DNA of 49,417 nucleotides, counting the filler, from Nitrospirota bacterium (GTDB lineage: Bacteria; UBA2233): the NCBI GenBank assembly GCA_011620345.1. It is 2 parts of 2 records of this genome, joined end to end, with 100 filler letters (N's around TTAATTAATTAA, not from the genome) between each part and the next. Parts side by side here need not be neighbours in the genome. Positions count along the whole stretch, not along the records: positions 1 to 25,122 come from WOZJ01000069.1; 1 more part is not named here. One strand, given 5' to 3'. The first letter of the stretch is position 1, and the number at the start of each line of letters is the position of its first letter. The translations under genes and the position numbers were made by a program. Positions 2,381 through 39,874 of the stretch are shown in pieces. The notes beneath the pieces were generated by a model that saw only the letters and a program-made list of their open reading frames with translations, ran no database searches and was not told where the DNA came from.

Positions 2381-2427
2381 GGTGGATGCCGTTGTGAACG
2401 GGCCTAACAAACCTTAAGGGAGGCTTT

Positions 2428-18427: not shown

Positions 18428-19051
18428 TTACGCCCCCGCGGCCAGGCGACCCGCTTCGAACGCTTCAAGGTTGGAAGCAAGCTTTTTTTCCGGGATAGAG
18501 TCCTTAAGCGCCAAAAATGCGTCTTCTTTGGTAAGCGAAAGCCCACTTTTCGCGACGAATGCGCCAAGAATTGCCGTGCTCGCAAGCGCAGGGCTGCCCA
18601 AGGCCTTGGCGATACCTGTCAAATCAAGCCAGAAGGCCTCCTTGGAGAGCGCATCCAAGTCTGCCCTTAAGGCCTCTTGGGTCGGGTAGTCCATCTCGCC
18701 CGCAATGACGCCCATAGGATAGACAGGCCTATCGTTGAGAACCATCCGGACCTCCGGGCTGCCAAACCCCTCGAGGACTCTCAGCGCCTCGAGCGGCTCG
18801 AGTGCAACGACCCAGTCGGCGGCACCTTTGGGGATCTGCGGGCTCAAAAGGCGCCTGTCTACAGAAACCCGGACATGGCTCATGACCGATCCGCCCCGCT
18901 GGGTGGCCCCGAACGTCTCGCCGATCGTCACCCAAAGGCCTTTTGCCGCGAGCATTTTAGCCAGCATCCTGGAAGCAAAGACATTGCCTTGGCCTCCCAC
19001 GCCCGTAAGGATCACGTTCCAGGGGTCTTTTTCAAGCCCTATGCCGCCCAT
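18428..19051 (-). CDS. iorB: Indolepyruvate:ferredoxin oxidoreductase beta subunit
   Basis: ILTGVGGQGNV, ETFGATQRGGSVMSHVR, LEPLEALR, NLEAFEAG. Start re-set to ATG 19051 (RBS AAGGAG), overlapping the iorA stop. Confidence 0.88.
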   Translation of the reverse strand: MGGIGLEKDPWNVILTGVGGQGNVFASRMLAKMLAAKGLWVTIGETFGATQRGGSVMSHVRVSVDRRLLSPQIPKGAADWVVALEPLEALRVLEGFGSPEVRMVLNDRPVYPMGVIAGEMDYPTQEALRADLDALSKEAFWLDLTGIAKALGSPALASTAILGAFVAKSGLSLTKEDAFLALKDSIPEKKLASNLEAFEAGRLAAGA

Positions 19052-20988
19052 ACGAGCTCCTTTTTTTGTATCGCCCCACTGGGACAGATTTGTGCGCAAA
19101 CCCCGCAGCCTGCACAGAGCACGTCGTCCACGCGCGCTTTTTTTGCATTTTTGTCCCAGAAAAGCGCAGGGCAGCGAAAGACCCGCGTGCAGAAGCGGTT
19201 GCACCCGCAGGCCTCTCCAAGGCAAACCGCCTCGTCCACCGCGACCTCGTAGGCCCCCTTGCCCTTCCTTTGAGGAGAGAGCGCGCAGGGCTGCTTTAAG
19301 ATCAGCACCCTAACCCCCTCCCCTTTTTCGCCCATCATGCCAAGCAGAAGCCTTTCGGTTTCTTGAAGCTCGAAGGGGTCGGCCACGAAAACCTTTGCCC
19401 CTATCGCAAGACAAACCCCTTCAATATCCACGGCCATGGCCCCCTTACCCTCTGCATCAAAGGCAAGCCCCGGATGGGGTTGGAAGCCCGTCATCGCGGT
19501 GCCTTGATTGTCGAGGATCACCAAAAGGAGGTCGGAGCGGTTGTGGACGGCGTTGATAAGCGCAGGAAGGCCCGTGTGGAAGAACGTCGAATCGCCCATG
19601 ACGGAAAGGGTGCGCTGGTCAAACCCAAACCTCCCCAGCTTTCCGAACCCGGAGCCAAGGCCCGTTCCAGAGCCCATCGCATGGAGCGTCTTGATCACCT
19701 GGAATCCAGCGGGCAGCATGGCAAGCGTATAGCAGCCGATGTCCCCGCAGACAAACCCGCCTCTTCCGTCCAGGGCTAACGCCTTCGCGACCGAAAAGAA
19801 CGAGGCCCTGTGCGGACAGCCAGGGCAGAAGGCAAGCTCCCTTTGAGGGGCGTGCATAAGGGTGGCCTCTGCGGCCTTTGATGCGTAGGCCTTGGGGACG
19901 GGCTCGTAGGAGAGCCCCAGTGCTCCTGCCAACGCCTCGGCGACGACATCAACGTTGAGCTCGCCAACGCCAGGCAGCGTGCCTTCGTCCTTGCCTAGGA
20001 AGCGTTTTTGTCCAAGCTCTCCATGATGCTCTGCCACGAACGCCTTGAGGGACTGCTCTAGAAACGACACCCCCTCCTCGACGATAAAGACCCGCCCCGG
20101 GGCTTTGAGATGCGCCTTGAGCAGGCCTTCTGGCAATGGGTAGGTTGTCGTGAGCGCAAGAAGGCCCGCCTTGTCCCAGGCGCTTAGCCTCTCGATCGCC
20201 TCAAAAGCGTAAAGGACGGCCACGGAGGAGGCAACAAGCAGGGTTTCGGGCTTATCGGGCCCAAAGTAACGGTTCAAGGGGAACTCTTCAAACCTGGCCT
20301 TCAGGCCAGCGAGCTTTTCTTGCAGAAGCATGCGCTTCAAAGGGACCGGCGCGGAGATCATCGCTCCCAAGTCCGGGTCGAGAATGAAGCCCTCATGCCG
20401 GAATACTGCGTTCCTTCGGGGTTTGGGCAACGGACCGAGCTCCACGACGCCGCTTGCGTGCGAAAGCCTGGTCACGCTCCTTACGAGCACCGGAATCTTA
20501 AAGGCTTCCGATATTTCGAAGGCAAGCTTTATGACTTCCTTCGCGCTTTCGACATCGGAGAGTTCGAAAAGCGGAAGCTCGAGCATCTTGGAAAAGTAGC
20601 GCGAGTCGGCCTCGTTCACGCTCGAGTGCGCTCCCGGGTCTTCGGCGAACACGAGAACCATCCCCGCACGCACGCCAGAGAGCGCCAAGTGCAAAAGAAA
20701 ATCCGAGCCCACGTGCAGGCCGTTCTGCTTCATGGCAGCAAGCGACCGAATACCCGCGAAAGAGGCGGCCGCTGCGACCTCCATAGCGACCTTCTCGTTG
20801 ACCGACCACTCGGTGTAGAGGTTGGCCTCTGAAGCGACCAGTGCCAGGCTCTCCAGGATCTCGGAGGCCGGCGTTCCGGGGTAGCTTGCCGCAACGCCCA
20901 GGCCCGCCTCGAGCGCCCCGCGGGCGATAGCCTCGTTGCCGAGAAACAGCGCCCTCTTGCCGGGGCAATCCTCAATGAGCTCCTTCAT
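19039..20988 (-). CDS. iorA: Indolepyruvate:ferredoxin oxidoreductase alpha subunit
   Basis: LGNEAIARGA, YPGTPASEI, EWSVNEKVA, FCPGCPHR, GDIGCYTL, GDSTFFH, DNQGTAMTG; C-terminal ferredoxin cysteines (CAGCGVCAQICP). Start re-set to ATG 20988. Confidence 0.92.
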   Translation of the reverse strand: MKELIEDCPGKRALFLGNEAIARGALEAGLGVAASYPGTPASEILESLALVASEANLYTEWSVNEKVAMEVAAAASFAGIRSLAAMKQNGLHVGSDFLLHLALSGVRAGMVLVFAEDPGAHSSVNEADSRYFSKMLELPLFELSDVESAKEVIKLAFEISEAFKIPVLVRSVTRLSHASGVVELGPLPKPRRNAVFRHEGFILDPDLGAMISAPVPLKRMLLQEKLAGLKARFEEFPLNRYFGPDKPETLLVASSVAVLYAFEAIERLSAWDKAGLLALTTTYPLPEGLLKAHLKAPGRVFIVEEGVSFLEQSLKAFVAEHHGELGQKRFLGKDEGTLPGVGELNVDVVAEALAGALGLSYEPVPKAYASKAAEATLMHAPQRELAFCPGCPHRASFFSVAKALALDGRGGFVCGDIGCYTLAMLPAGFQVIKTLHAMGSGTGLGSGFGKLGRFGFDQRTLSVMGDSTFFHTGLPALINAVHNRSDLLLVILDNQGTAMTGFQPHPGLAFDAEGKGAMAVDIEGVCLAIGAKVFVADPFELQETERLLLGMMGEKGEGVRVLILKQPCALSPQRKGKGAYEVAVDEAVCLGEACGCNRFCTRVFRCPALFWDKNAKKARVDDVLCAGCGVCAQICPSGAIQKKELVWAA

Positions 20989-22129
20989 GGCTACCCCCTT
21001 CCGTTTCGATGGCTTCGAGGAACTTTGGCAAAAAGGGGTCTTGGATGTCGAGATAGCCAAGCTTCGGACCAGGACCCGTCTTCTGACGTAACGCCCGGAT
21101 GGCCTTTTGTTTTTTGGCCCTGGCCGCCGTCTTGAGCGCTTCGAGCGCGCCCCTGGGAGCCTCGCGGACCTCCAAAACGCCAAGCTCTACGGCTTGCGAA
21201 AAAAACGCCTCTCCGCGCTCCGAGCGGATGAGTACCTGGTTCCAGGTTCGCATCTCCTCCCAGGGCTCGTTGGTTCTTGCCGAGCCCACAGAGATGTCGG
21301 CAAGCTCGGCCGTCGTATCGAGGCAGAAGGCGCATGCCTCCCGGATCATGGGCTCGAACCCATCGAAGGGCAGCTCCGCTAGGCCCGAATCCCCAAGAAT
21401 TTCGAGCGTTCCCTTTCCCGCCGGAATGTCCATCGCTACGAGCCTTCCGACCCCAAGCTCCTTCAGGCGTTCCTTGAAGGGCCTAAGCGAAAGCGTCCAC
21501 CCGCAGAACACGCCCAAAACGATAGAAAGCGCATCGCCAGGGTGGTCCTCGAAGCGTTCCGAAACGCTCCGGATCTTGGCAAGCGCCTGGGCCTGGCAAG
21601 GCGTGGCTACAACCCCGATGCGCTTGAACCCGGCCTTTCTCGCCGCATGGTAGCCGGACACGGTAGGAGAGACAAAAAGGGTACTGCCCGCGTAAGAAAT
21701 GACCTCCTTTGGGCTCGAAACGAGCGCGGGCGTCATGGCAAGGCTCTCTTTCTTGCCCGCCACGACGGCGACGTCCGCAAACCCTTGAGCGAGCGCCATG
21801 GCTAGAAGCACGCTCAGCGTCCCGCCGTGCTGGGCCTTGGCCCGGAGCATTGGGTCGCTTGCCCTTGCGAGCCTATAGCCCCGTATGCGCCCAAGCTCGG
21901 GCGTGCTCCCACCTTTGTTGGAGGGCGGACCGTAGATCTCGCTTAGCCTTAAATTCCAGCGGGGACAATAGGCGCTGCAACGGCCCTCATCGTTGGAAAG
22001 GCTGCAAGAAAAAACCTGCCGGACGTCATCCTCCCAAAACCCCTGGTAGGGGCATAACCCCACGCAGGCTCCGCAGCCCGTGCAAAGCCCAGCGTCCCAA
22101 ACGTTGGCCTTCAACGAATTCTGGCCCAC
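20972..22129 (-). CDS. FrhB/FdhB-family (F420 hydrogenase/dehydrogenase beta-like) flavo-FeS protein with N-terminal 4Fe-4S motif
   Basis: CTGCGACVGLCP, AQHGG, VATPCQ, GVFC, CAFCLD...ADISVGS; RBS AGGAGG. Confidence 0.85.
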   Translation of the reverse strand: MGQNSLKANVWDAGLCTGCGACVGLCPYQGFWEDDVRQVFSCSLSNDEGRCSAYCPRWNLRLSEIYGPPSNKGGSTPELGRIRGYRLARASDPMLRAKAQHGGTLSVLLAMALAQGFADVAVVAGKKESLAMTPALVSSPKEVISYAGSTLFVSPTVSGYHAARKAGFKRIGVVATPCQAQALAKIRSVSERFEDHPGDALSIVLGVFCGWTLSLRPFKERLKELGVGRLVAMDIPAGKGTLEILGDSGLAELPFDGFEPMIREACAFCLDTTAELADISVGSARTNEPWEEMRTWNQVLIRSERGEAFFSQAVELGVLEVREAPRGALEALKTAARAKKQKAIRALRQKTGPGPKLGYLDIQDPFLPKFLEAIETEGGSHEGAH

Positions 22130-22145
22130 CTAAACCTCCTTCGGT

Positions 22146-22820
22146 TCAACCTTCCTTGCTTGGGCCATCTTGCAACACGACGGCCAAAAGTTTCTTTGGT
22201 CCGTGCATCCCGAAAAACGGCACCCCTTGGATATCCGCGCTTTGGCTCGGGCCAGAAACGAGCGTCACTTGGGAGGGCATCGCCAAGGGTGGGGCAAGCG
22301 CGATTGCGAGGGCTCTCAAGTCCTCTAAAATACTTCCGGCCTTCAAAACGATCACGCTCAAAGGAGGGGCAAGGCTAAGGAGCCTCGGGTTTTCCTTCCC
22401 GTGCACAAGCGCCAGGGCGCCTAGCTCAGAAACGCCCCACTTGGCAACGCTCACCCCCGCATAGGCCTGAAAGGCCGCCCTTTTAAGGCCTTCCTCGTCC
22501 TCTGGAGCCAGGGTTCCTACGACCCCCGAGGTCTGCATCGCCTCTTGGAATGCTGGGCCAAGGAGCGCGTCGGCAGCCCTTGTAAACACCACCCTTTCGA
22601 TGCCTTCGCTCTGGAGAGCCTTAAGGAGCGCGCTCCCGACGTCACCGCTTTCTTTTTCTAAGATAACCATGGCAGAGTTTTGCTTAAGCCGCTCGATGAA
22701 ACGCTCGGTCAGGCCGTCTTTTCCTGGCGCCCTTGCCTGGAAATCACCGAGCCGTTCTGGTTGCCTTGATTCTCTAGGGGCCTTCTTCAGCCGCCCAAGG
22801 ATGGCATCGCGCGCGTTCAC
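22146..22820 (-). CDS. lutC: Lactate utilization protein C (LUD domain)
   Basis: N-terminal ARDAILGRL; RLLSLAPP; LVSGPSQSADIQ...GMHGP. Confidence 0.85.
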   Translation of the reverse strand: MNARDAILGRLKKAPRESRQPERLGDFQARAPGKDGLTERFIERLKQNSAMVILEKESGDVGSALLKALQSEGIERVVFTRAADALLGPAFQEAMQTSGVVGTLAPEDEEGLKRAAFQAYAGVSVAKWGVSELGALALVHGKENPRLLSLAPPLSVIVLKAGSILEDLRALAIALAPPLAMPSQVTLVSGPSQSADIQGVPFFGMHGPKKLLAVVLQDGPSKEG

Positions 22821-24184
22821 GGCATTTTTTCCTTGTTTTGGGCTGCCCCGAAAGCCTCCCGGAAACGCCGAGGGGCGAGCAAAGGAAGGCCAAACCTCCT
22901 GCCTAGCGCGTTGTAAAATGGCCTCAAGATTTTCAGCCCAAGGTTCTCTCTCATGCCCCCCGACAGCCCAAAGCCAGCCACGCCGTACGCTATCCCTTCC
23001 AAAGAAAGCAGACGCTTTCTGGCGAGCTTTTTTCGAAGCTCGAGGATAAGCATTGGATGGTCGATCCCGGCAGGGCAGACCTCTTTACACGCCCCGCAGA
23101 GACTGCAGGCTTGAAGGAGCTCGTTGGCGGCCTTTAGCCCGACAAGCATGGGAGTCCAGACAAGCCCCATCGGCCCAGAGTAGGCAAACCCGTAAGGGTA
23201 GCCGCCGACCTGGGCGTAGACCGGGCAGACGTTCAAGCACGCCCCGCAACGGATACAGGCCAGGGCAGGGCGTGTTTTGGGGTCTTCGTATATCTTCGAG
23301 CGCCCGTTGTCCACGATCACAACGTGAAGCTCCTCCGGGCCATCGAACTCGCCAAAGCGCCTTGGGCCCGAATCTATCGTGACGTAGGCCGACATCCTCT
23401 GGCCCGTACAGCTTGGGGGCAGCAGCCGAAGGACATAAAAGGCATCTTCGATGGTTGGTACGAGTTTTTCGATTCCCATGAGCGAAACCTGAACCTTTGG
23501 GACGGACTTTAGGAAGCGGATATTGCCCTCGTTCTCGACGCCCAAGATCGAGCCAGTTTCGGCAACGGCAAAGTTCACCCCCGTGATCCCAACCTTGGCC
23601 TCGGAGAACTTTCGCCTGAAAAATTCCCTAGCCGCAACGCCCAGTGCCACAGGGTCGGTGACGGGTCCTTGAATGAAACCCATATCCAAAAACAACGCCG
23701 AAACCCGCTCGACGGGCACGTTGATGGCGGGCCCGACGATGTGAAACGGAGGAAGCCCTAGCACTTGGCAGATGAACTCTCCCAAGTCCGTCTCTAGTGT
23801 CTCGAAGCCTTCCTCACCAAGAAACTCCCTTAGCCCTATCTCTTCGGTGAGCATCGACTTAGACTTAAGCACCGTCTTGGAGTTTTGCGCCCCAAGGAGA
23901 CCAAGCACAATCAGCCTTGCCTCCTTGGCGTCCCTGGCCCAGTGGATGTTAGTTCCGTTCGCTTTCGCGTTCTTTTCGAACGTTTCCAGAAGCTCTGGCA
24001 ACACCTCGAGCGCATCCGCCCTGATCTCTGCCGCCTTTTTAAGCGCACCCTTTGGATCCGGAAGCTCGGAGAGCGCCGCCTCCCTGAGCGCCCTAAAGGC
24101 AAAGGGCAGGATCTTCAAAAGACGCTGGGCGTCTTGGTCCTCGAGCGCGTCTTTTGCTACCCTCCGAAACGGGATCGACCTCAT
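22817..24184 (-). CDS. lutB: Lactate utilization protein B (FeS)
   Basis: KSKSMLTEEIGL, ETDLGEFI, GVNFAVAETGS, ENEGN, CIRCGACLNVCPVY, CSLCGACKEVCP. Start re-set to ATG 24184 (ATGA overlap with lutA). Confidence 0.9.
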   Translation of the reverse strand: MRSIPFRRVAKDALEDQDAQRLLKILPFAFRALREAALSELPDPKGALKKAAEIRADALEVLPELLETFEKNAKANGTNIHWARDAKEARLIVLGLLGAQNSKTVLKSKSMLTEEIGLREFLGEEGFETLETDLGEFICQVLGLPPFHIVGPAINVPVERVSALFLDMGFIQGPVTDPVALGVAAREFFRRKFSEAKVGITGVNFAVAETGSILGVENEGNIRFLKSVPKVQVSLMGIEKLVPTIEDAFYVLRLLPPSCTGQRMSAYVTIDSGPRRFGEFDGPEELHVVIVDNGRSKIYEDPKTRPALACIRCGACLNVCPVYAQVGGYPYGFAYSGPMGLVWTPMLVGLKAANELLQACSLCGACKEVCPAGIDHPMLILELRKKLARKRLLSLEGIAYGVAGFGLSGGMRENLGLKILRPFYNALGRRFGLPLLAPRRFREAFGAAQNKEKMP

Positions 24185-24921
24185 GGCCTGGCCCTCCGCT
24201 CGAGCGCCTCGTAGAGCACGCTTGCGATGTGCCGCACCTGCTTCGTTTCGTGCTTGCCGAGTGCCCGGCTTAGGTGGGTCATGCAACCGGGCTCGATCAC
24301 GACGAGCACCTCGGCTCCGCTTTGAAGGAACGGCTCGAGCCTCGCATGAGCCATCGCCTTCGAAACTTCTGGAAGATGGAAGGAAAACGCACCCCCAAAC
24401 CCGCAACAGGCCTCGGCAGACTCGAGCTCACTGGCCCCTTGTCCTCTTGACGATGAAAGCAGCGCCAAGGGCTGGGAGCGGACGCCAAGACCCCGAAGGG
24501 CCCTGCATGAGGGCCTGTAGGCAACCTTGCCTTGGATATCCAGGCCGATGCCTTCGATTCCAAGCTCATCCACGAGGAACGAGGAAAGCTCGAACGTCCT
24601 TTGGGCAAGCTCGAGCGCTTTCGCTTGCATTCTGGGCTCGTCTTCAAAAAGCGTTGGGTAGTGGAACTTGATCATCTCCGCGCAAGAGCCCGAGGGAACG
24701 ACGAGAGGTTTTCCGTTCTCCACGGCACTTATGACCCCGCGCGCCAAGGCGCGGGCCCTTTTGGGGCGACCTTCGTTCAAAAAAGGCTGTCCGCAGCAGC
24801 CGGGCGTATCCGGAATGTTCACCTCGACCCCCAAGCGACGAAGGAGGTTAAGCGTGGCGAACCCTATGTCCGGAAGGGCTAGATCGACCAAACAAGGCAC
24901 GAAAAGGTTCGCTTGGTACAC
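24181..24921 (-). CDS. lutA: Lactate utilization protein A (CCG-domain FeS protein)
   Basis: LFVPCLVD, CCGQP, PSGSC, CCGFGG, PGC; GTG start at 24921 after RBS AAGGAGG. Confidence 0.88.
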   Translation of the reverse strand: MYQANLFVPCLVDLALPDIGFATLNLLRRLGVEVNIPDTPGCCGQPFLNEGRPKRARALARGVISAVENGKPLVVPSGSCAEMIKFHYPTLFEDEPRMQAKALELAQRTFELSSFLVDELGIEGIGLDIQGKVAYRPSCRALRGLGVRSQPLALLSSSRGQGASELESAEACCGFGGAFSFHLPEVSKAMAHARLEPFLQSGAEVLVVIEPGCMTHLSRALGKHETKQVRHIASVLYEALERRARP

Positions 24922-24950
24922 CCTGCCCTCCTTCCATAAAACCGTTCTTT

Positions 24951-24989
24951 GTATGTCTTTAGCATACGCTTGAGTAAGGGGATCCACAA
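24951..24989 (-). promoter_or_regulatory. Candidate sigma70 promoter of the lut-ior operon with overlapping inverted repeat
   Basis: The minus strand reads TTGTGG-17nt-TATGCT. The inverted repeat GTATG-N7-CATAC (24951-24967) overlaps the -10. Confidence 0.45.
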
Positions 24990-25043
24990 CCCTTCGTACA
25001 CGAAAAATGCCCTTGGTCGCATGCAAAGCCGAGGCTTGCAAAT

Positions 25044-25122
25044 GCGGGACAAGAATGTCCCGCCTATCTTCCCATCTGATAGCCGGGTCTTTCTAGGCCC
25101 GGCGCAAAGAGAGCTGGACAAG
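25044..25122. repeat. REP-like inverted doublet (same family as 36-268), truncated by contig end
   Basis: GCGGGACAAGAATGTCCCGCCTATC (25044-25068) is followed by GATAGCCGGGTCTTTCTAGGCCCGGC (25078-25103). A third copy (GCTGGACAAG) begins at the break. Confidence 0.8.
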
Positions 25123-25222
25123 NNNNNNNNNNNNNNNNNNNNNNNNNNNNNNNNNNNNNNNNNNNNTTAATTAATTAANNNNNNNNNNNNNNNNNNNNNN
25201 NNNNNNNNNNNNNNNNNNNNNN
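25123..25222. other. Artificial contig-joining linker
   Basis: 44 N, then TTAATTAATTAA (25167-25178, stops in all six frames), then 44 N. Confidence 0.97.
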
Positions 25223-25264: not shown

Positions 25265-25600
25265 TTACCTGGCAAAACCAAGGAAAAGGGCTAGGGCCCT
25301 ATCCAGCCTGACCCTCAAGTGCTCATCAATCTTGCCAAGCCTGGCCCGGATCCTTTCTTGTTTTAGGGCTGTGATCTTGTCCGCCATGATCTGTGAGGGC
25401 CTAACGAGACCTGTTTCGTTGCAAGGTTCTACATCGAGGCGGAAAAGCGGCGCGTCTTGCAGTGTGCTCGTAATTGGGCAAATGACGATGCTTACGTGCG
25501 TGGGGTTAAAAATATCCGACTGAACGATCACCGCAGGGCGGGGTTTTCCGTAGTCTCCGGGAGCGACACAGAGGACAATGTCCCCGCGTTTCAGCTCCAA
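25265..25600 (-). CDS. PemK/MazF-family type II toxin
   Basis: KRGDIV...GDYGKPRPAVIVQSD...CPITS...SQIMADKI. Probable TTG start at 25600, overlapping the antitoxin end. Confidence 0.92.
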   Translation of the reverse strand: MELKRGDIVLCVAPGDYGKPRPAVIVQSDIFNPTHVSIVICPITSTLQDAPLFRLDVEPCNETGLVRPSQIMADKITALKQERIRARLGKIDEHLRVRLDRALALFLGFAR

Positions 25601-25806
25601 TCCCAGCCTTCGGTGTCCCTTGCGGCCTCGACCCAATCAAGCGTTTGCTGCTCGCTTGCTAAGCGGCTGACGAGCGCAGACTGCCTTCTGGCTTCCTCAA
25701 TAAAGCCCGATAAGCGCGTATCCGGTACCCAAAGCTGGATGGGGCGCAGACCACGGGCTCTCAACCTAGCCCTCAAGGCCCTCATTTTTCTGGCCGCTTC
25801 CGTCAT
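25591..25806 (-). CDS. MazE-like antitoxin (DUF3018 type)
   Basis: Signature RARLRARGLRPIQLWVPDTR...EARRQS, immediately upstream of the toxin. Confidence 0.88.
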   Translation of the reverse strand: MTEAARKMRALRARLRARGLRPIQLWVPDTRLSGFIEEARRQSALVSRLASEQQTLDWVEAARDTEGWDWS

Positions 25807-33355: not shown

Positions 33356-33601
33356 AACGACCCCCCGTTTTTATAGAGTTTATTATAAATACTATTCATC
33401 CCCTCTGGTCCTCTTGCATTGACCCTTTTTACAGGCTATGAATTGGCCTTCTAGCTTCCGTATTGGAAGGTTCGTTTCTGTAAGCCACCATATTGTCTAA
33501 AGGAAGAATAACATAGTAGAATAGTAGTATGACAAATATATTAGGCTAAAGCAAATTATGTTTAATTTTTGTCTTCCAACGACCTAAGCAAGGAGAGTGC
33601 C

Positions 33602-33925
33602 GTGATTGTCTATGGGGATGCCGTTGAGGTGCCAAACGTGGTGATCGACTATGAAAAGTGCGATACCTGCATTAACTGCCTAAGAACATGCCCGATGCAG
33701 GTCCTTAAGGTCGAGAACAAGCGGGTCGTTCAAGCATCCGAGCTATGCTTCGCCTGTCGAAACTGTGAAGCGGCCTGCCCTACTGACGCGATAAAGGTCG
33801 TCGGCCGCTACAAGGAGCTCAAAGGCAAACGGCCTAGCGGCATCGGGTACAACCCGTTGGTAGCGTTCCCGGAATTCCAAAAGCTCGCGAGCGACAAGGC
33901 GAAACTGTTGTCAAAGGGCCGGTAG
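33602..33925 (+). CDS. 2x[4Fe-4S] ferredoxin-like protein
   Basis: CDTCINCLRTCP and CFACRNCEAACP; RBS AAGGAG 6 nt before GTG 33602. Confidence 0.85.
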   Translation: MIVYGDAVEVPNVVIDYEKCDTCINCLRTCPMQVLKVENKRVVQASELCFACRNCEAACPTDAIKVVGRYKELKGKRPSGIGYNPLVAFPEFQKLASDKAKLLSKGR

Positions 33926-33940
33926 GCAAAAGGAGGCGTT

Positions 33941-34654
33941 ATGGAAACAAAGCCGAGAAGGGACGGGCCTAAAGAGACCACGGCCGCGTACCGCTACAAC
34001 ACCCAAGAAATCGAAAGGCTGATCAAGACGAGGAGGAGCGTCAGGCTGTTCAAAAAAGACGACGTTCCTGACGAGCTGGTCGAGAGGCTGATCGATCTGG
34101 CCCACTGGGCACCTTCAGGGATGAACGCCCAGCCTTGGAAGTTTGTCGTAATCAAAAACCGAGGTCTTCTGGAGGAGATCCGAAGGGCGACGGTCAAGGG
34201 CCTGGAGCTCACGATGAAGGTCTTCACCAAAAGGCAGCCCCACTGGCGCTTGATGAAGCTTTTGGTGCGTATCCTTAAGCCCTCGATGTACCGCATTATG
34301 GACCCGAGGGCCTTGCAGGGCTCGAGGGCGCTGCTCGAGGTCCCGCACACGGACGTCCTCTTGAAAGCGCCCGTGCTGATTCTCGTCTTGGGGAACAACG
34401 GCTCGTCCACGGCGCTCGAGGACTGCAGCGCCGCCACGCAGACCTTGGCGCTAGCGGCCCACGCTCACGGGCTCGGCAGCTGCTGGGTTGGGTTTGTCGA
34501 GAAATTCCTCCCGATGAACCGCAAGCTCTGCAAGAGGCTCGGAATCGGCGGAGAGTGGTTCCTGGCGACGGTATCCGCCCTTGGGTATCCGATTACGGAT
34601 TACGGCAGAAAGTTCATCGAGCGGGATCCGGCCGAAATCGTGTGGGTCCGCTAG
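33941..34654 (+). CDS. Nitroreductase family flavoprotein
   Basis: TRRSVRLF, WAPSGMNAQPWKFVV, AAHAHGLGSCWVG, LGYP; own RBS AAGGAGG. Confidence 0.9.
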   Translation: METKPRRDGPKETTAAYRYNTQEIERLIKTRRSVRLFKKDDVPDELVERLIDLAHWAPSGMNAQPWKFVVIKNRGLLEEIRRATVKGLELTMKVFTKRQPHWRLMKLLVRILKPSMYRIMDPRALQGSRALLEVPHTDVLLKAPVLILVLGNNGSSTALEDCSAATQTLALAAHAHGLGSCWVGFVEKFLPMNRKLCKRLGIGGEWFLATVSALGYPITDYGRKFIERDPAEIVWVR

Positions 34655-34700
34655 CGGCCACAGAAAGGCGGCCAGTACAACCAAGAAAAAGGGAGAAGAC

Positions 34701-35579
34701 ATGGCTTTAGGCAATAAAGCGACTCTTACCTGCGCCCTTACGGGCATCTTAACCGATCCGGAACGCTTCGGCGTTCCCGTAACCCCCGAGCAGATGGCAA
34801 GTCACGCCAAGGAGGCGTTCGATGCCGGGGCGAGCATCATGCACGTGCACGTGCGCGATCAAAGGCCGGGCATGGGATCGTGGCCCTCGTGGAGCCCCGA
34901 GGATGCGCTGGCCGTCGTGCAGGCCATACGTGAGGCCTGCCCCGGCGTAATCATCAACTTGAGCACGGGCATCGTGGGGCCTGACATCTCGGGACCCGTG
35001 GCCTGCCTTGAGCGGGTCAAGCCTGAAATGGCCGCGCTGAACGCGGGCTCGCTCAATTATCTTAAGGTCAAATCGGACGGGACGTGGGCATGGCCCCCTA
35101 TGGTGTTCGACAACCCGGTCGAAAAAGTCGAGCAGTTCGCCCGGGTAATGTATGCCAACGGCATCCTGCCGGAGTGCGAGTGCTTCGATGCGGGGATCGT
35201 GCGGAGCGTCGAGCTCTACCGGCGGGCAGGCATCTTAAGGCCCCCGATCGATGTCTCGATCATCATGGGAGTGGAAAGCGGCATGCCCGCGAAACCCTCC
35301 TGGCTCCCTTTATTGATCGAAGAGCTCCCTCAGGGCGCAAGCTGGCAGGTGATCGCCATCGGCAGGCAAAACGTCTGGGAGCTTCACAAGAAGGCGGCAG
35401 AGCTTGGCGGAAACCTGAGGACGGGCCTAGAGGACACCTTCTACCTGCCAGACGGCACCACGACCCGCTCGAATGGTAAGCTCATCGAGGCGCTTGCCAA
35501 GGTTGCGAAGGAGGCGGGTCGGGACATCGCAAGCCCAAGCGAGACACGGGCTGCGTTTGGCATGCCCTCCGCTACATAG
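34701..35579 (+). CDS. Beta-keto acid cleavage enzyme (BKACE/DUF849, Kce family)
   Basis: TCALTG, PVTPEQ, AGASIMHVHVRD, NAGSLNY, PECECFD, RTGLED. Start re-set to ATG 34701. Confidence 0.9.
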   Translation: MALGNKATLTCALTGILTDPERFGVPVTPEQMASHAKEAFDAGASIMHVHVRDQRPGMGSWPSWSPEDALAVVQAIREACPGVIINLSTGIVGPDISGPVACLERVKPEMAALNAGSLNYLKVKSDGTWAWPPMVFDNPVEKVEQFARVMYANGILPECECFDAGIVRSVELYRRAGILRPPIDVSIIMGVESGMPAKPSWLPLLIEELPQGASWQVIAIGRQNVWELHKKAAELGGNLRTGLEDTFYLPDGTTTRSNGKLIEALAKVAKEAGRDIASPSETRAAFGMPSAT

Positions 35580-35609: not shown

Positions 35610-36962
35610 CTAAAGCAGAGCATCGGGCAAGAACTCTTCCTCCACAAACTTGACGTGGTATGCCCCCTCCCGAAAGGCCCTTGAATTAAGGAGCGCCTGG
35701 TGGAAGGGGACGAGCGTCTTCGGGCCTTCGAGGACGAGCTCTTTCAAGGCCCTGCGCATCCGTTCGAGCGCAGAGGACCGGTCGGTATCCCAGGCAAGGA
35801 GCTTCAGGAGCAGCGGGTCATAGAAGGCCGTAACCTTAGAGCCTGCCCGGATGCCACCGTCTACGCGCACCCCTGGGCCGCCGGGGGGCTCGTAGGCCGC
35901 CACGACGCCGGGACTCGGCATAAAGTTGCGTTTTGGGTCTTCGGCGTAGATACGGCACTCGATCGCATGCCCTTTCGGCAGGACGTCTTCTTGGCAAAAC
36001 GACAACGGCTCCCCCGCGGCGACCCTAACCTGCTCACGGACCAGGTCAATGCCCGTCCGCATCTCGGTTACAGGGTGCTCGACCTGGATACGGGTGTTCA
36101 TCTCCAGAAAGTAGAAGCGTTGCCCTTCGTCCACCAAAAACTCTATTGTGCCTACGCTGTGGTAGCCCACATGCTTCACGGCCCTAAGCGCGGCCTCGGC
36201 CATCGCTTGCCGGGTATCTTCGGTAATCAAGGGTGAGGGGCTTTCTTCCACGAGCTTTTGGTAGCGCCTTTGAATCGAGCAGTCCCTTTCGAACAGGTGG
36301 ACGGAGCATCCGAAATTGTCGCAGACAACCTGCACCTCGACGTGGTGGGCCTTTTCGAAGTACCGCTCGATGTACACCTTGGGGCTGCCGAAGAACTGGG
36401 CCCCCATCTTGCTTGCACGCAAGAAGGCGCCCTCGAGCGCTTCTTTGTCCTTCAGGATCGCCGTACCGATCCCTCCGCCCCCGAAGGCGGCCTTGAGGAT
36501 GACGGGGTAGCCGAGCTCATCGGCCGCTCTTTGTGCAGCCCCGGCGTCCTCTAGAAACCCTGAGCCCGGCGGGATAGGCAGGCCGGCTTCCTGCATGAGC
36601 CGCTTCGCCAAGACCTTATCGCCCATCTTGCGGGCAATTGCGGCGCTTGGGCCGATAAAAACGAACCCGGCTTTTTCGATGCGTTCGATGTAGTCGGCAT
36701 TCTCGGCAAAAAAACCGTAGCCCGGATGGATGGCCTCGGCGTTCGCCTCTTTGGCCGCCTGAAGGATCGCATCCAGGTTGAGGTAACTCTTTATGGCCGG
36801 AGGCTCGCCGATGAGGTAGGCTTCATCGGCCAGCTTGGTATGAAGCGCTTCTTCGTCCGCCTTCGAGTAAACGGCCACGGATTGGATCCCCAACTCCTTA
36901 AGCGCCCGGATAACACGGACGGCGATCTCGCCACGGTTGGCCACCAGCACCTTCTTGAACAC
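35610..36962 (-). CDS. accC: Biotin carboxylase subunit
   Basis: KVLVANRGEIAVR, IHPGYGF, GGGGIG, RDCSIQRRYQK, EMNTRIQVEHPVTE. Confidence 0.93.
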   Translation of the reverse strand: MFKKVLVANRGEIAVRVIRALKELGIQSVAVYSKADEEALHTKLADEAYLIGEPPAIKSYLNLDAILQAAKEANAEAIHPGYGFFAENADYIERIEKAGFVFIGPSAAIARKMGDKVLAKRLMQEAGLPIPPGSGFLEDAGAAQRAADELGYPVILKAAFGGGGIGTAILKDKEALEGAFLRASKMGAQFFGSPKVYIERYFEKAHHVEVQVVCDNFGCSVHLFERDCSIQRRYQKLVEESPSPLITEDTRQAMAEAALRAVKHVGYHSVGTIEFLVDEGQRFYFLEMNTRIQVEHPVTEMRTGIDLVREQVRVAAGEPLSFCQEDVLPKGHAIECRIYAEDPKRNFMPSPGVVAAYEPPGGPGVRVDGGIRAGSKVTAFYDPLLLKLLAWDTDRSSALERMRRALKELVLEGPKTLVPFHQALLNSRAFREGAYHVKFVEEEFLPDALL

Positions 36963-36964
36963 GC

Positions 36965-38494: not shown

Positions 38495-38749
38495 CAAACA
38501 ACCCCTTTAAGCTTGTTGGTTTCACGTTTCTATCTATAACAGCAAGAGCATCGCCCCAAACGTCTTGCCAAGTTTGTCGGCTCTTAGCGAGCGTAATGCC
38601 CCCCTTCCTGGAGAGCACCGTGGACGATGAATAGGCGCTGGCGAACACGAGCGGCTCTTGCACATCGTCGGGGTAAGGGAGCGTTGGTTTGTATATGCCT
38701 CAAAACCAGAGCCCGGCTCTGATCCTAACGCTCTTTACGCTCTTTGGGC

Positions 38750-38980
38750 TCACCCGGATACCTCTTCGATCTCGGCAAGCACGCTACCCTCATCGATGAA
38801 ATCTCCCTCCTCGACGTTTATTTTCCGCACCAACCCCGATACCGGGGTTTGCACCTCGATTTGCATCTTCATCGATTCGAGCACGAACAGAGTGTCCCCC
38901 TCTTGGATGTTGGCCTCCTGGCTTACCCGAACCTCGACAACCGTACCTGCCATCTCATTGATCACTTTGATCACTTCCAT
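38750..38980 (-). CDS. Stand-alone biotin carboxyl carrier protein
   Basis: Biotinylation motif LESMKMQ; 76 aa from ATG 38980 with RBS AAGGAGG. Confidence 0.9.
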   Translation of the reverse strand: MEVIKVINEMAGTVVEVRVSQEANIQEGDTLFVLESMKMQIEVQTPVSGLVRKINVEEGDFIDEGSVLAEIEEVSG

Positions 38981-39104
38981 AAAGCCTGAACCCTCCTTCA
39001 TTTTTTTCTCGCGCCAAGACTCTCGATTCCAGCGACGAATTGCATCCATAGACTCAAGAAAAGGTTTTTTTGTCTCCAGGCAATCTACAAAGGCTGGTGC
39101 GCGC

Positions 39105-39872
39105 CTAGCCCCCCTTGCCTCTCTGGGCAAGAAACCGCTCGATCGCGTCTTTGAGGGCATCCGATTTGAACGTGAGGAGCCTCAGAAGCCCCGCCTGCTC
39201 AAAAAGGGAGTCATCCGGCCTGCCCATGCGGTTGTAGAGCTCTAGCCCTGTTCTTACAGCGAGCGGGCTCTTTTGGGCAAGGCTTTTTGCGAGCTCCCAT
39301 GCGGCATCCTCAAGCCTTTCCTCCTCGACCACCTCATGGACAAGCCCAAGCTCGCGGGCTTCTTGAGCGGAAAGCGTACGTGCCGTAAGGCTCAACTCGA
39401 GCGCTTTCTTGAGCCCGACGCTCCTTGCGATCAAAGGGAAGATGGCGAACGGAAACAGCCCCAGAGTCACCTCGGGAAGGCCAAGCTTAGCCGAGTCGGC
39501 GGCAATCGCCAAGTGCGCCAAGGCTACAAGCCCCATCCCTCCGCCCATGGCCGCTCCCTTTACTGCGGCCACGACGGGCGTCCTGAGCGTGTGGGCGAGC
39601 TTAAAGAGCTCCATGCTCGGAGCGATCGTTTCGTAGAGCTCGTCCAAACTCTTGCCAAAATGACCGATAAAATCCTTGAAATCGCCGCCCGCGCAGAAGT
39701 GCTTGCCTTCGGCGCTCAAGATGATTGCCCGGACCTCGCTTTCGGCATCGGCTTTTTGAAGGGCTTGGGTCAGCTCGACAACGAGGGCCTCCGACAGGGC
39801 GTTCCGTTGCTCCGGCCGGTTCAAACGTACGAGCGCGATTTGCTCTTTGACTTCATAAAGGACGTCAGACAT
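39105..39872 (-). CDS. Enoyl-CoA hydratase/crotonase (single-Glu, LiuC/AtuE-like)
   Basis: LNRPEQRNAL, FCAGGD, AMGGGMGL (no first Glu), PEVTLGL. Confidence 0.88.
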   Translation of the reverse strand: MSDVLYEVKEQIALVRLNRPEQRNALSEALVVELTQALQKADAESEVRAIILSAEGKHFCAGGDFKDFIGHFGKSLDELYETIAPSMELFKLAHTLRTPVVAAVKGAAMGGGMGLVALAHLAIAADSAKLGLPEVTLGLFPFAIFPLIARSVGLKKALELSLTARTLSAQEARELGLVHEVVEEERLEDAAWELAKSLAQKSPLAVRTGLELYNRMGRPDDSLFEQAGLLRLLTFKSDALKDAIERFLAQRGKGG

Positions 39873-39874
39873 GC

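What the first reader, a model, noticed from the sequence alone, without database searches (positions are those of the whole stretch)
18428..24921. lutABC-frhB-like-iorAB operon: candidate aryl- or branched 2-hydroxy-acid oxidation pathway with a dedicated FrhB-type electron module
Seen: six same-strand genes, four junctions overlapping and one with a 16-nt gap, behind a single candidate promoter. Known: LutABC oxidises lactate to pyruvate; IorAB oxidatively decarboxylates arylpyruvates to arylacetyl-CoA and reduces ferredoxin; FrhB-family proteins are FAD/FeS modules that need not use F420 outside methanogens. Inference: here Lut may act on phenyl-, indole- or hydroxyphenyl-lactate (or other bulky 2-hydroxy acids) and feed the 2-oxo acid to IOR. 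The FrhB-like subunit could route electrons between the high-potential Lut step and the low-potential IOR step. I know of no characterised example of this arrangement, but could not search for one.
Basis: partly seen in the sequence, partly recalled or inferred. Interest (0 to 1): 0.8.

Follow-up and report, generated by a model that had tools for sequence, protein, structure and literature searches.

The report
Oxoacid oxidoreductase wired to FrhB flavoprotein
A real six-gene bacterial operon joins a lactate-type dehydrogenase to a 2-oxoacid oxidoreductase that carries its own FrhB-type flavin/iron-sulfur subunit, a widespread but undescribed three-gene module that probably replaces free ferredoxin as the enzyme's electron outlet.

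Summary
Six tightly packed minus-strand genes (lutA, lutB, lutC, an FpoF/FrhB-like gene, iorA, iorB) lie at 18428-24921. The claimed single promoter could not be verified, and a contig end lies 201 nt upstream.

The core is a conserved three-gene module, FrhB-like + IorA + IorB. It is adjacent in 77 of 78 testable related loci. The complex model places FrhB's N-terminal ferredoxin domain on IorA's C-terminal ferredoxin domain (score 0.67, best control 0.00).

FrhB's closest solved relatives are the F420-reductase subunits bolted onto CO dehydrogenase and formylmethanofuran dehydrogenase in an ethane-oxidising archaeon.

lutABC is a rarer add-on. All six genes recur, in permuted order, in 3 of 93 loci. 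Other 2-hydroxyacid dehydrogenases and ADP-forming acyl-CoA synthetases flank the module elsewhere, which fits 2-hydroxyacid to 2-oxoacid to acyl-CoA.

This genome encodes F420 synthesis, but only 1 of 13 other module-bearing genomes does. F420 is therefore plausible here and cannot be the general acceptor.

The operon is a GC-rich accessory cassette, absent from the one same-genus genome.

Substrate, acceptor and any Lut-FrhB electron link remain untested. I rate it a new variant of a known kind, of moderately high interest.

The parts
24181..24921 (-). lutA-like subunit (246 aa, GTG start, RBS GGAAGGAGGG): two CCG cysteine-rich domains
   Evidence: Pfam CCG 1.1e-23 with 2 stretches. Best NCBIfam match is the C-terminal part of LdhH, below cut-off. 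Start and RBS.
22817..24184 (-). lutB (455 aa): LUD domain plus 2x[4Fe-4S]; its ATG overlaps the lutA stop by 4 nt
   Evidence: Pfam LUD_dom 5.5e-40 and Fer4_8 2.3e-16. TIGR00273 scores 391.3 bits against a cut-off of 444.8.
22146..22820 (-). lutC (224 aa): LUD domain; 4-nt overlap with lutB
   Evidence: Pfam LUD_dom 3.4e-21; junction.
20972..22129 (-). FpoF/FrhB-like flavo-iron-sulfur subunit (385 aa): N-terminal ferredoxin domain, then FrhB_N and FrhB_C; 16-nt gap after lutC, RBS GAAGGAGG
   Evidence: Pfam FrhB_FdhB_C 1.7e-30, FrhB_FdhB_N 7e-12, Fer4 1.9e-05. Best PDB relatives are 8riu_B (5.4e-35, residues 8-345) and 8rja_E. Eleven Cys are invariant in 54 homologs.
19039..20988 (-). iorA (649 aa): TPP-binding alpha subunit with a C-terminal 2x[4Fe-4S] domain; overlaps the FrhB-like gene by 17 nt
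   Evidence: TIGR03336 IOR_alpha 6.7e-168, 559.7 bits against a cut-off of 650.9. Pfam POR_N, TPP_enzyme_C and Fer4. TPP-motif residues G465, D466, D493 and N494 are invariant in 44 homologs.
18428..19051 (-). iorB (207 aa): POR gamma-type domain; overlaps iorA by 13 nt; its stop lies 14 nt from the convergent aldolase gene's stop
   Evidence: Pfam POR 7.5e-31. TIGR03334 IOR_beta scores 128.9 bits against a cut-off of 205.8.
18478..24952 (.). Extent of the accessory cassette: the stretch missing from the same-genus genome G001, where about 1.46 kb holding DUF4282 and TauE genes stands instead
   Evidence: In G001, homology at 91% ends at window 18477 and resumes at 24953 at 86%. Replacement genes. 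Operon GC (18428-24921) is 59.7% against a genome mean of 55.6%; 4 of 712 windows are as high.
24922..25035 (-). Upstream untranslated region, partly shared with G001 (24953-25068); the promoter is presumed here or further upstream and was not identified
   Evidence: conservation; no consensus promoter found.
25036..25114 (.). REP-like dispersed repeat with two short GC-rich hairpins; the cause of the contig break
   Evidence: 43 matches listed in G001, nearly all to this stretch. Depth 61-440 against 11-34 for the operon, and contigs of four runs end here. Sequence read.

Best explanation
The operon encodes a two-step oxidation of a 2-hydroxy acid to an acyl-CoA.

Step 1: LutABC oxidises the 2-hydroxy acid to the 2-oxo acid.

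Step 2: IorAB decarboxylates the 2-oxo acid to acyl-CoA plus CO2.

IorAB does not release its electrons to free ferredoxin. It carries a dedicated third subunit, the FpoF/FrhB-like protein. This protein docks by its N-terminal two-cluster ferredoxin domain on IorA's C-terminal ferredoxin domain. It passes single electrons through its own [4Fe-4S] cluster to FAD, and it delivers them as a hydride to a two-electron carrier.

In this bacterium, which encodes F420 biosynthesis, that carrier is most likely F420. That would make the enzyme a 2-oxoacid:F420 oxidoreductase, analogous to the F420-reducing CO dehydrogenase and formylmethanofuran dehydrogenase of Ca. Ethanoperedens. In the many F420-less hosts of the same module the carrier must be something else, such as NAD(P)+ or a protein partner.

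Shown here: the gene content, the tight packing, the conservation of FrhB-IorAB, the recurrence of the six-gene set, the accessory nature of the cassette, and the presence of cof genes.

Inferred: physical FrhB-IorA binding (model only), direction of electron flow, the acceptor, that Lut feeds Ior, and the substrate. The substrate may be lactate/pyruvate or a bulkier acid. I put about 0.35 on a substrate other than lactate.
For: Module conservation:
- FrhB-like is adjacent to IorA/IorB in 13 of 13 genome loci.
- Over all 93 loci, 77 show the adjacency. Of the 16 without, 15 have under 330 nt after FrhB, so the count is 77 of 78 testable.

Binding model:
- Score 0.67, best of 3 controls 0.00. 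The mark was reached by 116 of 157 solved complexes and by 2 of 215 mismatched pairs. These counts hold only roughly, because my own alignments were used.
- Runs agree in at least 89% of contacts, and partner pLDDT is at least 84.
- The interface joins IorA 401-408, 429, 549, 590-603 and 634-637 to FrhB 24-50 and 193-195. These are the two ferredoxin-type domains, and they include invariant Cys-motif residues.

Closest solved relatives:
- 8riu_B at 5.4e-35 over residues 8-345, and 8rja_E.
- They have the same architecture: ferredoxin domain, F420-reductase domain with [4Fe-4S] and FAD, anchored through the N-terminal domain, with measured F420 reduction (PMC11493965, passages read).

F420 in this genome:
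- CofD 320 bits, CofE 186 bits and CofH 463 bits, all over cut-off.
- A second FrhB paralog overlaps the cofH stop on contig C70.

Lut linkage:
- All six genes appear as iorA-iorB-frhB-lutA-lutB-lutC in L049, L051 and L058.
- Relatives of LutB (72%), FrhB (62-64%) and IorA (76%) sit on contigs of identical lengths, 8349 and 22561 nt. LutB and FrhB relatives also share lengths 6986 and 13579. This is indirect.

Pathway context:
- GlcD-like dehydrogenase lies 59 nt upstream in L032, about 3 kb downstream in L001 and L013, and with a CCG protein in L010.
- D-2-hydroxyacid dehydrogenase lies 80 nt upstream in L037.
- ADP-forming acyl-CoA synthetase lies just downstream in L001, L004, L013 and L046.

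The genome also holds a separate core lutABC (93% identical in G001) and a 1225-aa PFOR. The cassette is therefore a second, accessory system.
Against: - F420 cannot be the module's general acceptor. CofH is over cut-off in only 1 of 13 module-bearing genomes, and CofD in the same 1 of 13. A genome whose record title calls it a whole chromosome (7.66-Mb contig) is among those lacking both.
- No Fno/npdG was found in this genome, and no F420H2 consumer was identified.
- cofG and cofH lie on a 4.2-kb contig whose membership in the genome is less certain. The same-genus genome (93% complete) shows CofD and CofE but no CofH and no FrhB-family gene.
- Lut is adjacent in only 3 of 93 loci, and in 1 of 23 loci with a complete module and at least 2.5 kb on both flanks.
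- The most frequent neighbour is not a dehydrogenase. It is a flavodiiron protein directly downstream of iorB in 16 loci, which hints at another role.
- All six proteins score below their NCBIfam equivalog cut-offs.
- No promoter was found.
- One locus (L046) has FrhB with 6.3 kb downstream and no IorAB.
Confidence: 0.55

Rival explanations
1. The architecture is the same, with FrhB-like as a fixed subunit of IorAB, but the acceptor is not F420 even in this organism. The FAD hands electrons to NAD(P)+, or the subunit passes them to a protein partner such as a flavodiiron protein or rubredoxin. The FrhB fold would then be used as a generic flavin/iron-sulfur adaptor.
For: - 12 of 13 other module-bearing genomes lack CofH and CofD over cut-off.
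- A flavodiiron protein gene follows iorB within 40-275 nt in 16 loci, often with rubrerythrin.
- PF04432 also hits F420-less control genomes, namely Synechococcus and Bacteroides.
- A chloroplast chlorophyll-a reductase is a weak PDB hit of the family (5dqr).
- OFORs with NAD-reducing extra subunits are an annotated kind: NF045764, NADH-dependent phenylglyoxylate dehydrogenase.
- No Fno was found here.
Against: - This genome does encode CofD, CofE and CofH, plus an FrhB paralog in the cofH operon.
- All strong solved relatives listed (E 5e-35 down to 5e-06) are parts of F420 enzymes.
- No NAD(P)-binding domain is detectable in the protein.
Confidence: 0.22
2. Confurcating supercomplex. Electrons from the high-potential Lut step and the low-potential IorAB step meet at the FrhB FAD. 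Together they reduce two molecules of a mid-potential hydride carrier (F420 or NAD(P)+), so that 2-hydroxyacid oxidation is pulled by 2-oxoacid oxidation.
For: - FrhB lies between the Lut and Ior blocks in both gene orders. It is translationally coupled to lutA in L049, L051 and L058, and it lies 16 nt after lutC in the window.
- From textbook values that I recalled, the lactate/pyruvate potential (about -190 mV) and the pyruvate/acetyl-CoA potential (about -500 mV) average close to that of F420 (about -340 mV).
- A lactate dehydrogenase/Etf complex that uses reduced ferredoxin to drive lactate oxidation is known in Acetobacterium woodii (recalled, no call).
Against: - FrhB-IorAB occurs without Lut in the great majority of loci.
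- FrhB's position at the junction is expected in 1 of 4 cases by chance.
- No bifurcating-type second flavin or known bifurcation module is present.
Confidence: 0.1
3. The two halves are functionally independent. An ordinary L-lactate utilisation operon and an FrhB-IorAB module for amino-acid-derived oxoacids travel together only because they were captured in one mobile cassette.
For: - The operon is a compositionally odd accessory cassette, replaced by other genes in the same-genus genome.
- Lut adjacency is rare.
- Thousands of LutB homologs at 50-57% identity exist in similar bacteria, and the window's LutB is not especially close to those of L049, L051 or L058.
Against: - The six-gene set persists across deep divergence, with IorA about 55% identical, and in two gene orders.
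- It is retained in relatives at 62-86% identity (indirect).
- Junctions are overlapping or 16 nt apart.
- Three unrelated kinds of 2-hydroxyacid dehydrogenase recur beside the module.
Confidence: 0.1
4. The module works in reverse. It carboxylates an acyl-CoA reductively to a 2-oxoacid for amino-acid synthesis, with FrhB feeding electrons in.
For: IOR-family enzymes are reported to work anabolically in some anaerobes (recalled, no call).
Against: - F420H2 and NAD(P)H are too weak as reductants for this reaction. The same argument is made for PFOR in PMC9012536 (passage read).
- Neighbours are catabolic: dehydrogenases, ADP-forming acyl-CoA synthetases, CoA transferases.
Confidence: 0.03

Closest known systems
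F420-reducing CO dehydrogenase (ACDS alpha2-epsilon2-zeta2, PDB 8RIU) and formylmethanofuran dehydrogenase with FwdI (PDB 8RJA) of Ca. Ethanoperedens thermophilum (Lemaire, Wegener, Wagner 2024, PMC11493965)
   Same: - An FrhB-type subunit with an N-terminal two-cluster ferredoxin domain, a [4Fe-4S]/FAD domain and a C-terminal tail.
- It is attached to a CO2-releasing enzyme that normally uses ferredoxin.
- These subunits are the best PDB hits of the window's protein.
- Docking through the N-terminal domain is predicted here too.
   Different: - The partner is a TPP-dependent 2-oxoacid oxidoreductase of the IorAB type, not CODH or Fwd.
- The host is bacterial.
- Most hosts lack F420 biosynthesis.
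- There is no biochemistry.
FrhB6-PFOR and FrhB7-CODH gene clusters predicted in ANME-1 archaea (Chadwick et al. 2022, PMC9012536, passages read)
   Same: - An FrhB paralog clustered with a 2-oxoacid:ferredoxin oxidoreductase.
- The same proposal: oxidative direction with electrons going to F420.
   Different: - Archaeal, with a four-subunit-type PFOR rather than IorAB.
- No 2-hydroxyacid dehydrogenase is attached.
- I could not test whether FrhB6 and this family are orthologous, because no sequences were at hand.
Desulfovibrio-type lactate oxidation locus with LdhH, named by NCBIfam NF045670 (L-lactate dehydrogenase (quinone) large subunit LdhH). The operon with PFOR is recalled, not looked up.
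   Same: - LUD/CCG-type lactate dehydrogenase genes are linked to a 2-oxoacid oxidoreductase for hydroxyacid to acyl-CoA.
- LdhH is the best NCBIfam match of LutA and the second-best of LutB, after TIGR00273.
   Different: - Here LutA and LutB are separate genes, not fused.
- The oxidoreductase is IorAB plus FrhB-like, not PFOR.
- The cassette holds no permease, pta or ack.
Canonical LutABC/LldEFG L-lactate utilisation complexes (TIGR00273 family)
   Same: Three-subunit CCG / LUD+FeS / LUD architecture and gene order.
   Different: - Below the equivalog cut-off, 391 against 444.8 bits.
- It is a second, accessory copy beside a core lutABC on contig C50.
- It is fused into an operon with an oxidoreductase.
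FpoF/FqoF input subunits of F420H2 dehydrogenases (NF040616, NF006808)
   Same: Same full-length architecture, Fer4 + FrhB_N + FrhB_C, matched over residues 8-343.
   Different: - 79-80 bits against cut-offs of 444-475.
- Encoded with IorAB, not with a Nuo-like complex.

Membership tests
LutABC (LUD/CCG lactate utilisation complex) | Three genes encoding a CCG-domain subunit, a LUD + 2x[4Fe-4S] subunit and a LUD subunit, in that order | tested here: met
   Pfam CCG (2 stretches), LUD_dom + Fer4_8, and LUD_dom. Overlapping junctions.
LutABC (LUD/CCG lactate utilisation complex) | LutB reaches the NCBIfam equivalog cut-off (TIGR00273, 444.8 bits) | tested here: not met
   391.3 bits. The genome's core paralog also fails at 364.1, and L058 and L051 LutB score 384.6 and 380.7.
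LutABC (LUD/CCG lactate utilisation complex) | Oxidises L-lactate to pyruvate | not testable with these tools
   Needs an enzyme assay. A phylogeny against validated LutB was not built because no validated sequences were available to me.
Indolepyruvate:ferredoxin oxidoreductase (IorAB) | Two-subunit form: alpha with PYR and PP (TPP) domains plus a C-terminal 2x[4Fe-4S] domain; beta with a POR gamma-type domain | tested here: met
   TIGR03336 aligned 12-640 to 2-595 of 595. Pfam POR_N, TPP_enzyme_C, Fer4 and POR. TPP-motif residues and the Cys of the cluster motifs are invariant in 44 homologs.
Indolepyruvate:ferredoxin oxidoreductase (IorAB) | Reaches the equivalog cut-offs (IOR_alpha 650.9; IOR_beta 205.8) | tested here: not met
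   559.7 and 128.9 bits. FrhB-linked IorA of L058 and L001 score 575.5 and 589.8. This points to a distinct subfamily.
Indolepyruvate:ferredoxin oxidoreductase (IorAB) | Prefers arylpyruvates; reduces ferredoxin | not testable with these tools
   Needs assays with a panel of 2-oxoacids and acceptors.
FrhB/FpoF-type F420 reductase | FrhB_N + FrhB_C fold with four Cys for one [4Fe-4S] and a Q-x-G-G FAD loop; FpoF/zeta-type N-terminal ferredoxin domain | tested here: met
   Pfam. Cys 178, 209, 266 and 269, and seven N-terminal Cys, align with 8riu_B and are invariant in 54 homologs. The loop reads QHGG, where PMC3930138 gives QDGG for FrhB. The own paralog has QDGG.
FrhB/FpoF-type F420 reductase | Reaches NCBIfam cut-offs for FrhB or FpoF | tested here: not met
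   142.9 against 269 (PRK09325); 123.8 against 331.5 (frhB); 79.3 against 475 (FpoF).
FrhB/FpoF-type F420 reductase | Host makes F420 | tested here: inconclusive
   Own genome: CofD, CofE and CofH over cut-off. Other module hosts: 1 of 13. Same-genus genome: CofD and CofE yes, CofH no, at 93% completeness.
FrhB/FpoF-type F420 reductase | Reduces or oxidises F420 | not testable with these tools
   The papers read define no sequence signature for F420 binding. The pocket was empty in the Frh map (PMC3930138).
Hard-wired acceptor subunit on a ferredoxin-type enzyme (8RIU/8RJA kind) | The FrhB-type subunit binds the catalytic enzyme through its N-terminal ferredoxin domain, continuing the cluster chain | tested here: met
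   Prediction only. Score 0.67, best control 0.00; the mark was reached by 116 of 157 solved complexes and 2 of 215 mismatches, counts that hold only roughly with my own alignments. Contacts agree at 89% or more and partner pLDDT is at least 84. The interface joins FrhB 24-50 to IorA 590-603 and 634-637. The model supports binding and does not show it.
Desulfovibrio LdhH-type lactate/pyruvate oxidation locus | Fused LutB-LutA large subunit (706 aa) with PFOR, permease, pta and ack | tested here: not met
   LutA and LutB are separate genes matching LdhH positions 468-705 and 4-390. The cassette has no PFOR, permease, pta or ack.

The most novel reading that the evidence does not exclude
The six proteins form one machine. 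It oxidises a 2-hydroxy acid all the way to acyl-CoA and merges the high-potential electrons of the Lut step with the low-potential electrons of the IorAB step at the FrhB flavin. This yields two reduced F420 (or NAD(P)H) and no free ferredoxin. It would be a flavin-based electron-confurcating 2-hydroxyacid oxidation system built on an FrhB scaffold. It would also be the first 2-oxoacid:F420 oxidoreductase, and it would be bacterial.
Probability: 0.1. Interest if true: 0.85.

Novelty: new variant of a known kind. Interest (0 to 1): 0.62.

Why it matters
2-Oxoacid:ferredoxin oxidoreductases are treated as ferredoxin enzymes in metabolic models of anaerobes.

A large, conserved bacterial subfamily of IorAB carries its own FrhB-type flavoprotein. 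It was seen in 77 loci here and in 960 FrhB-like proteins at E of 1e-60 or below. Hosts include syntrophs and sulfate reducers (Smithella, Syntrophaceae, Desulfosarcina) and Dehalococcoidia. If the subunit works as proposed, the electron output of these reactions is a hydride carrier and not ferredoxin. That would change energy budgets for amino-acid and organic-acid degradation in sediments, digesters and oil reservoirs.

It would extend the 2024 discovery of F420-reducing CODH and Fwd from archaea to bacteria and to a third enzyme class.

It also poses a sharp question. What does an FrhB module reduce in organisms that make no F420?

The Lut-linked version offers a compact operon for testing whether hydroxyacid and oxoacid oxidation are electronically coupled.

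Tried and rejected
- Promoter: the consensus scan found none upstream of lutA, and terminator-like sites were at background (10 found, 11.7 expected). This gives no support either way for co-transcription.
- RNA evidence: no RNA holder was listed among 24 runs, so expression and co-transcription are untested.
- F420 as a universal acceptor: rejected.
- Origins of the Lut linkage: not settled.
  - FrhB trees put the window clade with Smithella-type sequences, apart from L049, L051 and L058. AU tests gave p 0.016 and 0.015 against one clade. The group was named after seeing the first tree, and there is a long stem branch.
  - IorA trees put the window clade next to L051 and L058 with support 78 and 62.
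- NCBIfam scores as a way to tell the accessory from the core LutB: both fall below cut-off, so they are uninformative.
- F420-binding residues: no usable signature in the passages read.
- Fno/npdG as an F420H2 outlet: not found in this genome, which is 96.8% complete.
- Operon-less form in nature: one contig joint, 18477 to 24983, in one marine-sediment run, with only 30 letters on one side. I treat it as a weak hint.
- LutB phylogeny against validated enzymes: not built.
- Literature: no paper on FrhB-IorAB or on a Lut-FrhB-Ior operon turned up. The searches were 'FrhB'+'indolepyruvate'; 'F420'/'ferredoxin oxidoreductase'/'FrhB'/'2-oxoacid'; 'iorAB'+'F420'; 'indolepyruvate'+'F420 hydrogenase'; and 'LutABC'+'indolepyruvate'. 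For most hits I saw only the search listings. Supplementary figures of PMC11493965 (Fig. S17, frhB homolog contexts) and of PMC9012536 (S16 Fig) were not seen and might bear on novelty.

Full report
**1. The observation**

The region 18428-24921 holds six minus-strand genes. Starts are supported by Shine-Dalgarno sequences.

| Gene | Coordinates | Length |
|---|---|---|
| lutA-like | 24921..24181 | 246 aa |
| lutB | 24184..22817 | 455 aa |
| lutC | 22820..22146 | 224 aa |
| FrhB-like | 22129..20972 | 385 aa |
| iorA | 20988..19039 | 649 aa |
| iorB | 19051..18428 | 207 aa |

Four junctions overlap, by 4, 4, 17 and 13 nt, and one is a 16-nt gap. Pfam and NCBIfam give the expected families:
- LutA: CCG x2.
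- LutB: LUD + 2x[4Fe-4S].
- LutC: LUD.
- FrhB-like: Fer4 + FrhB_N + FrhB_C.
- IorA: IOR_alpha.
- IorB: IOR_beta.

All six score below NCBI's equivalog cut-offs, so these are divergent members.

- The window is a concatenation of contigs, with a spacer of N, TTAATTAATTAA and N at 25123-25222. The operon's 5' end is therefore only 201 nt from a contig end.
- The consensus scan finds no promoter there, and site counts are at background.

Contigs assembled from four separate studies (oil field, soil, marine sediment, sludge) cover the same gene arrangement. All of them break in a repeat at about 25037-25111.

**2. The core is a three-gene module**

I searched with the FrhB-like protein.
- It gave 13 loci in species-representative genomes: Thermodesulfobacteriota such as Smithella, Syntrophaceae, Desulfosarcina and Desulfobacteraceae, plus two Dehalococcoidia. 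IorA and/or IorB lie next to it in 13 of 13. L003 is cut within iorA.
- A profile scan of metagenome contigs gave 80 more loci.
- Over all 93 loci, IorA or IorB is adjacent in 77. Of the 16 without, 15 end less than 330 nt after the FrhB gene. Only L046 is a true exception, which gives 77 of 78 testable loci.
- The order is frhB-iorA-iorB in 69 loci and iorA-iorB-frhB in 8.
- The family is large. 960 proteins score at E of 1e-60 or below, and sources name them only 'coenzyme F420 hydrogenase subunit beta'.

**3. What the FrhB-like protein resembles**

Its best solved relatives are 8riu_B (E 5.4e-35, residues 8-345 aligned to 14-344 of 370) and 8rja_E.

According to the passages I read in PMC11493965:
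- These are the zeta subunit of the CO dehydrogenase component and the FwdI subunit of formylmethanofuran dehydrogenase of Ca. Ethanoperedens thermophilum.
- The zeta subunit, which is described in detail, has an N-terminal ferredoxin domain with two [4Fe-4S] clusters and an F420-reductase domain with one [4Fe-4S] and FAD. It is anchored to the catalytic core through the N-terminal domain.
- Both complexes reduce F420 in assays.

The window's protein keeps the same cysteine pattern. The Cys are invariant in 54 homologs. The FAD loop reads QHGG, where PMC3930138 reports QDGG for FrhB.

PMC9012536 had already noted FrhB paralogs clustered with PFOR (FrhB6) and with CODH (FrhB7) in ANME-1 archaea. 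It proposed oxidative, F420-reducing complexes.

None of my five literature searches found the bacterial FrhB-IorAB module or a Lut-FrhB-Ior operon described.

**4. Does it bind IorA?**

I folded IorA (1-649, alignment of 44) with FrhB (1-350, alignment of 54).
- The score was 0.67, and the best of three controls was 0.00.
- The mark was reached by 116 of 157 solved complexes and by 2 of 215 mismatched pairs. These counts hold only roughly, because my own alignments were used.
- The runs agree in at least 89% of contacts, and the partner's pLDDT is at least 84.
- The interface joins FrhB 24-50 (its ferredoxin domain) and 193-195 to IorA 590-603 and 634-637 (its ferredoxin domain) and 401-408, 429 and 549.

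This geometry would continue IorA's cluster chain into FrhB, as in 8RIU. The model supports binding but does not show it. Likeness to solved FrhB-type complexes may contribute to the score.

**5. F420 or not**

This genome (1.80 Mb, 72 contigs, 96.8% complete) encodes the following.
- CofD, CofE and CofH over cut-off.
- A CofG-like gene beside cofH.
- A second FrhB paralog, 29% identical, whose start overlaps the cofH stop on the 4.2-kb contig C70.

F420 is therefore available here and is tied to an FrhB-family protein.

Several results weigh against F420.
- Of the 13 other genomes that carry the module, only one (a Dehalococcoidia) has CofH and CofD over cut-off. A genome whose record title calls it a whole chromosome (7.66-Mb contig) is among those without.
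- The same-genus genome G001 (93% complete) has CofD and CofE but no CofH and no FrhB-family gene.
- No Fno was found here.

I conclude that F420 is a reasonable acceptor in this organism and cannot be the module's general acceptor.

**6. The Lut link**

Lut genes are adjacent in only 3 of the 93 loci. In those three (L049, L051, L058) all six genes are present and tightly packed in a different order, iorA-iorB-frhB-lutA-lutB-lutC.

Closer relatives also exist.
- LutB relatives at 72%, FrhB at 62-64% and IorA at 76% identity sit on contigs of identical length, 8349 and 22561 nt.
- LutB and FrhB relatives also share contig lengths of 6986 and 13579 nt.
- This is indirect evidence that the cassette is conserved in relatives.

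Whether the two gene orders descend from one linkage event or two is unresolved.
- FrhB trees separate them, with AU p of 0.016 and 0.015.
- IorA trees join them weakly, with support 78 and 62.

Either way, the linkage has been kept or re-made.

Other kinds of 2-hydroxyacid dehydrogenase lie beside the module elsewhere:
- GlcD-like: 59 nt upstream in L032; about 3 kb downstream in L001 and L013; with a CCG protein in L010.
- NAD-dependent D-2-hydroxyacid dehydrogenase: 80 nt upstream in L037.

ADP-forming acyl-CoA synthetases follow the module in L001, L004, L013 and L046, and CoA transferases occur in L055 and L095.

This recurring frame fits the pathway 2-hydroxyacid to 2-oxoacid to acyl-CoA, and then on to the acid plus ATP.

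**7. The cassette is accessory**

- In G001 the convergent aldolase gene (91% identity) and 116 nt upstream of lutA (86%) are both present. The 6.5 kb between them is replaced by about 1.46 kb holding DUF4282 and TauE genes.
- The operon's GC is 59.7% against a genome mean of 55.6% for 6.5-kb windows (sd 1.8). Only 4 of 712 windows are as high.
- The genome also has a core lutABC on contig C50, whose proteins are 34-43% identical to the window's. That region is 93% identical in G001 at the DNA level. There are three other OFOR loci, including a 1225-aa PFOR.

The cassette is thus a second, probably acquired system. Its nearest relatives outside its own clade come from Thermodesulfobacteriota-like bacteria at 45-58% identity. 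Nothing I could compute tests this.

**8. Verdict**

The best-supported reading is a modular 2-hydroxyacid oxidation operon whose IorAB is hard-wired to an FrhB-type flavoprotein in place of free ferredoxin. F420 is the likely final acceptor in this organism.

The main rival keeps the architecture and replaces F420 with NAD(P)+ or a protein partner. The flavodiiron protein gene directly downstream of iorB in 16 loci is a lead for that rival.

The boldest reading that is not excluded is a confurcating Lut-FrhB-IorAB machine.

The finding is a new variant of a known kind.

Noticed in passing
window 25123-25222 and 47170-47269: The window is not one contiguous sequence. An artificial spacer (N run, TTAATTAATTAA, N run) and a second N run separate contigs. 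Only 1-25122 is contig C61 of the genome, so genes beyond 25222 are not neighbours of the operon.
   Followed up: yes
window 25036-25114: A REP-like dispersed repeat with two short GC-rich hairpins. 43 matches are listed in the same-genus genome, nearly all to this stretch. Depth in four metagenomes is 61-440 against 11-34 for the operon. It breaks every assembly looked at and flanks the variable cassette site.
   Followed up: partly
own genome contig C70 (4218 nt): 377-1603(-), 1913-3094(+), 3091-4218(+): A CofG-like gene, then cofH (over cut-off), then a second FpoF/FrhB-like gene whose start overlaps the cofH stop and which runs off the contig end. So an FrhB-family gene sits in an F420-biosynthesis operon. 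No FrhB-family gene and no CofH were found in the same-genus genome (93% complete).
   Followed up: partly
L002, L005, L006, L007, L030, L052, L057, L060, L065, L067, L068, L078, L080, L083, L092, L101 (directly after iorB): A class-A flavodiiron protein gene follows iorB on the same strand within 40-275 nt in 16 loci, often with rubrerythrin next. This suggests that in Smithella/Syntrophaceae-type bacteria the FrhB-IorAB module may feed oxygen or peroxide detoxification.
   Followed up: partly
L009 5454-11505 and L011: In the Desulfobacteraceae-type loci, IorAB-FrhB is followed by aconitase-family, isocitrate/isopropylmalate dehydrogenase-family, PrpD-family and FAD_binding_2 genes, behind an IclR regulator. 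This may be a different oxoacid-generating pathway feeding the same module.
   Followed up: no
L046 2259-9442: This is the one locus where the FrhB-like gene has no IorAB beside it. It is followed by a fused ADP-forming acyl-CoA synthetase, an acyl-CoA dehydrogenase and a DUF362 protein.
   Followed up: no
G001:C48 (locus L028) and own genome C28:42684-43577: In the same-genus genome, cofD lies on the same contig as the cassette site, about 11 kb away. In the window's genome, cofD lies about 400 nt from the end of contig C28.
   Followed up: no
own genome C66:61525-63551, C53:23704-24456, C32:6127-6588: One NuoF lies next to a NuoD (a full-type complex I). Two further NuoD-like genes have no NuoF hit nearby. 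A second Nuo-like complex could be an F420H2- or ferredoxin-dependent entry point.
   Followed up: no
window 25265-25636 (-), on the next contig: A MazF/PemK-type toxin ORF (Pfam 1.3e-21) lies at the start of the following contig.
   Followed up: no
window 33569-35579 and 35610-41545: On the other contig there is a ferredoxin, nitroreductase and BKACE cluster. Beside it is an acyl-CoA carboxylase (biotin carboxylase and carboxyltransferase), enoyl-CoA hydratase and AMP-ligase cluster. These are unrelated to the finding.
   Followed up: no
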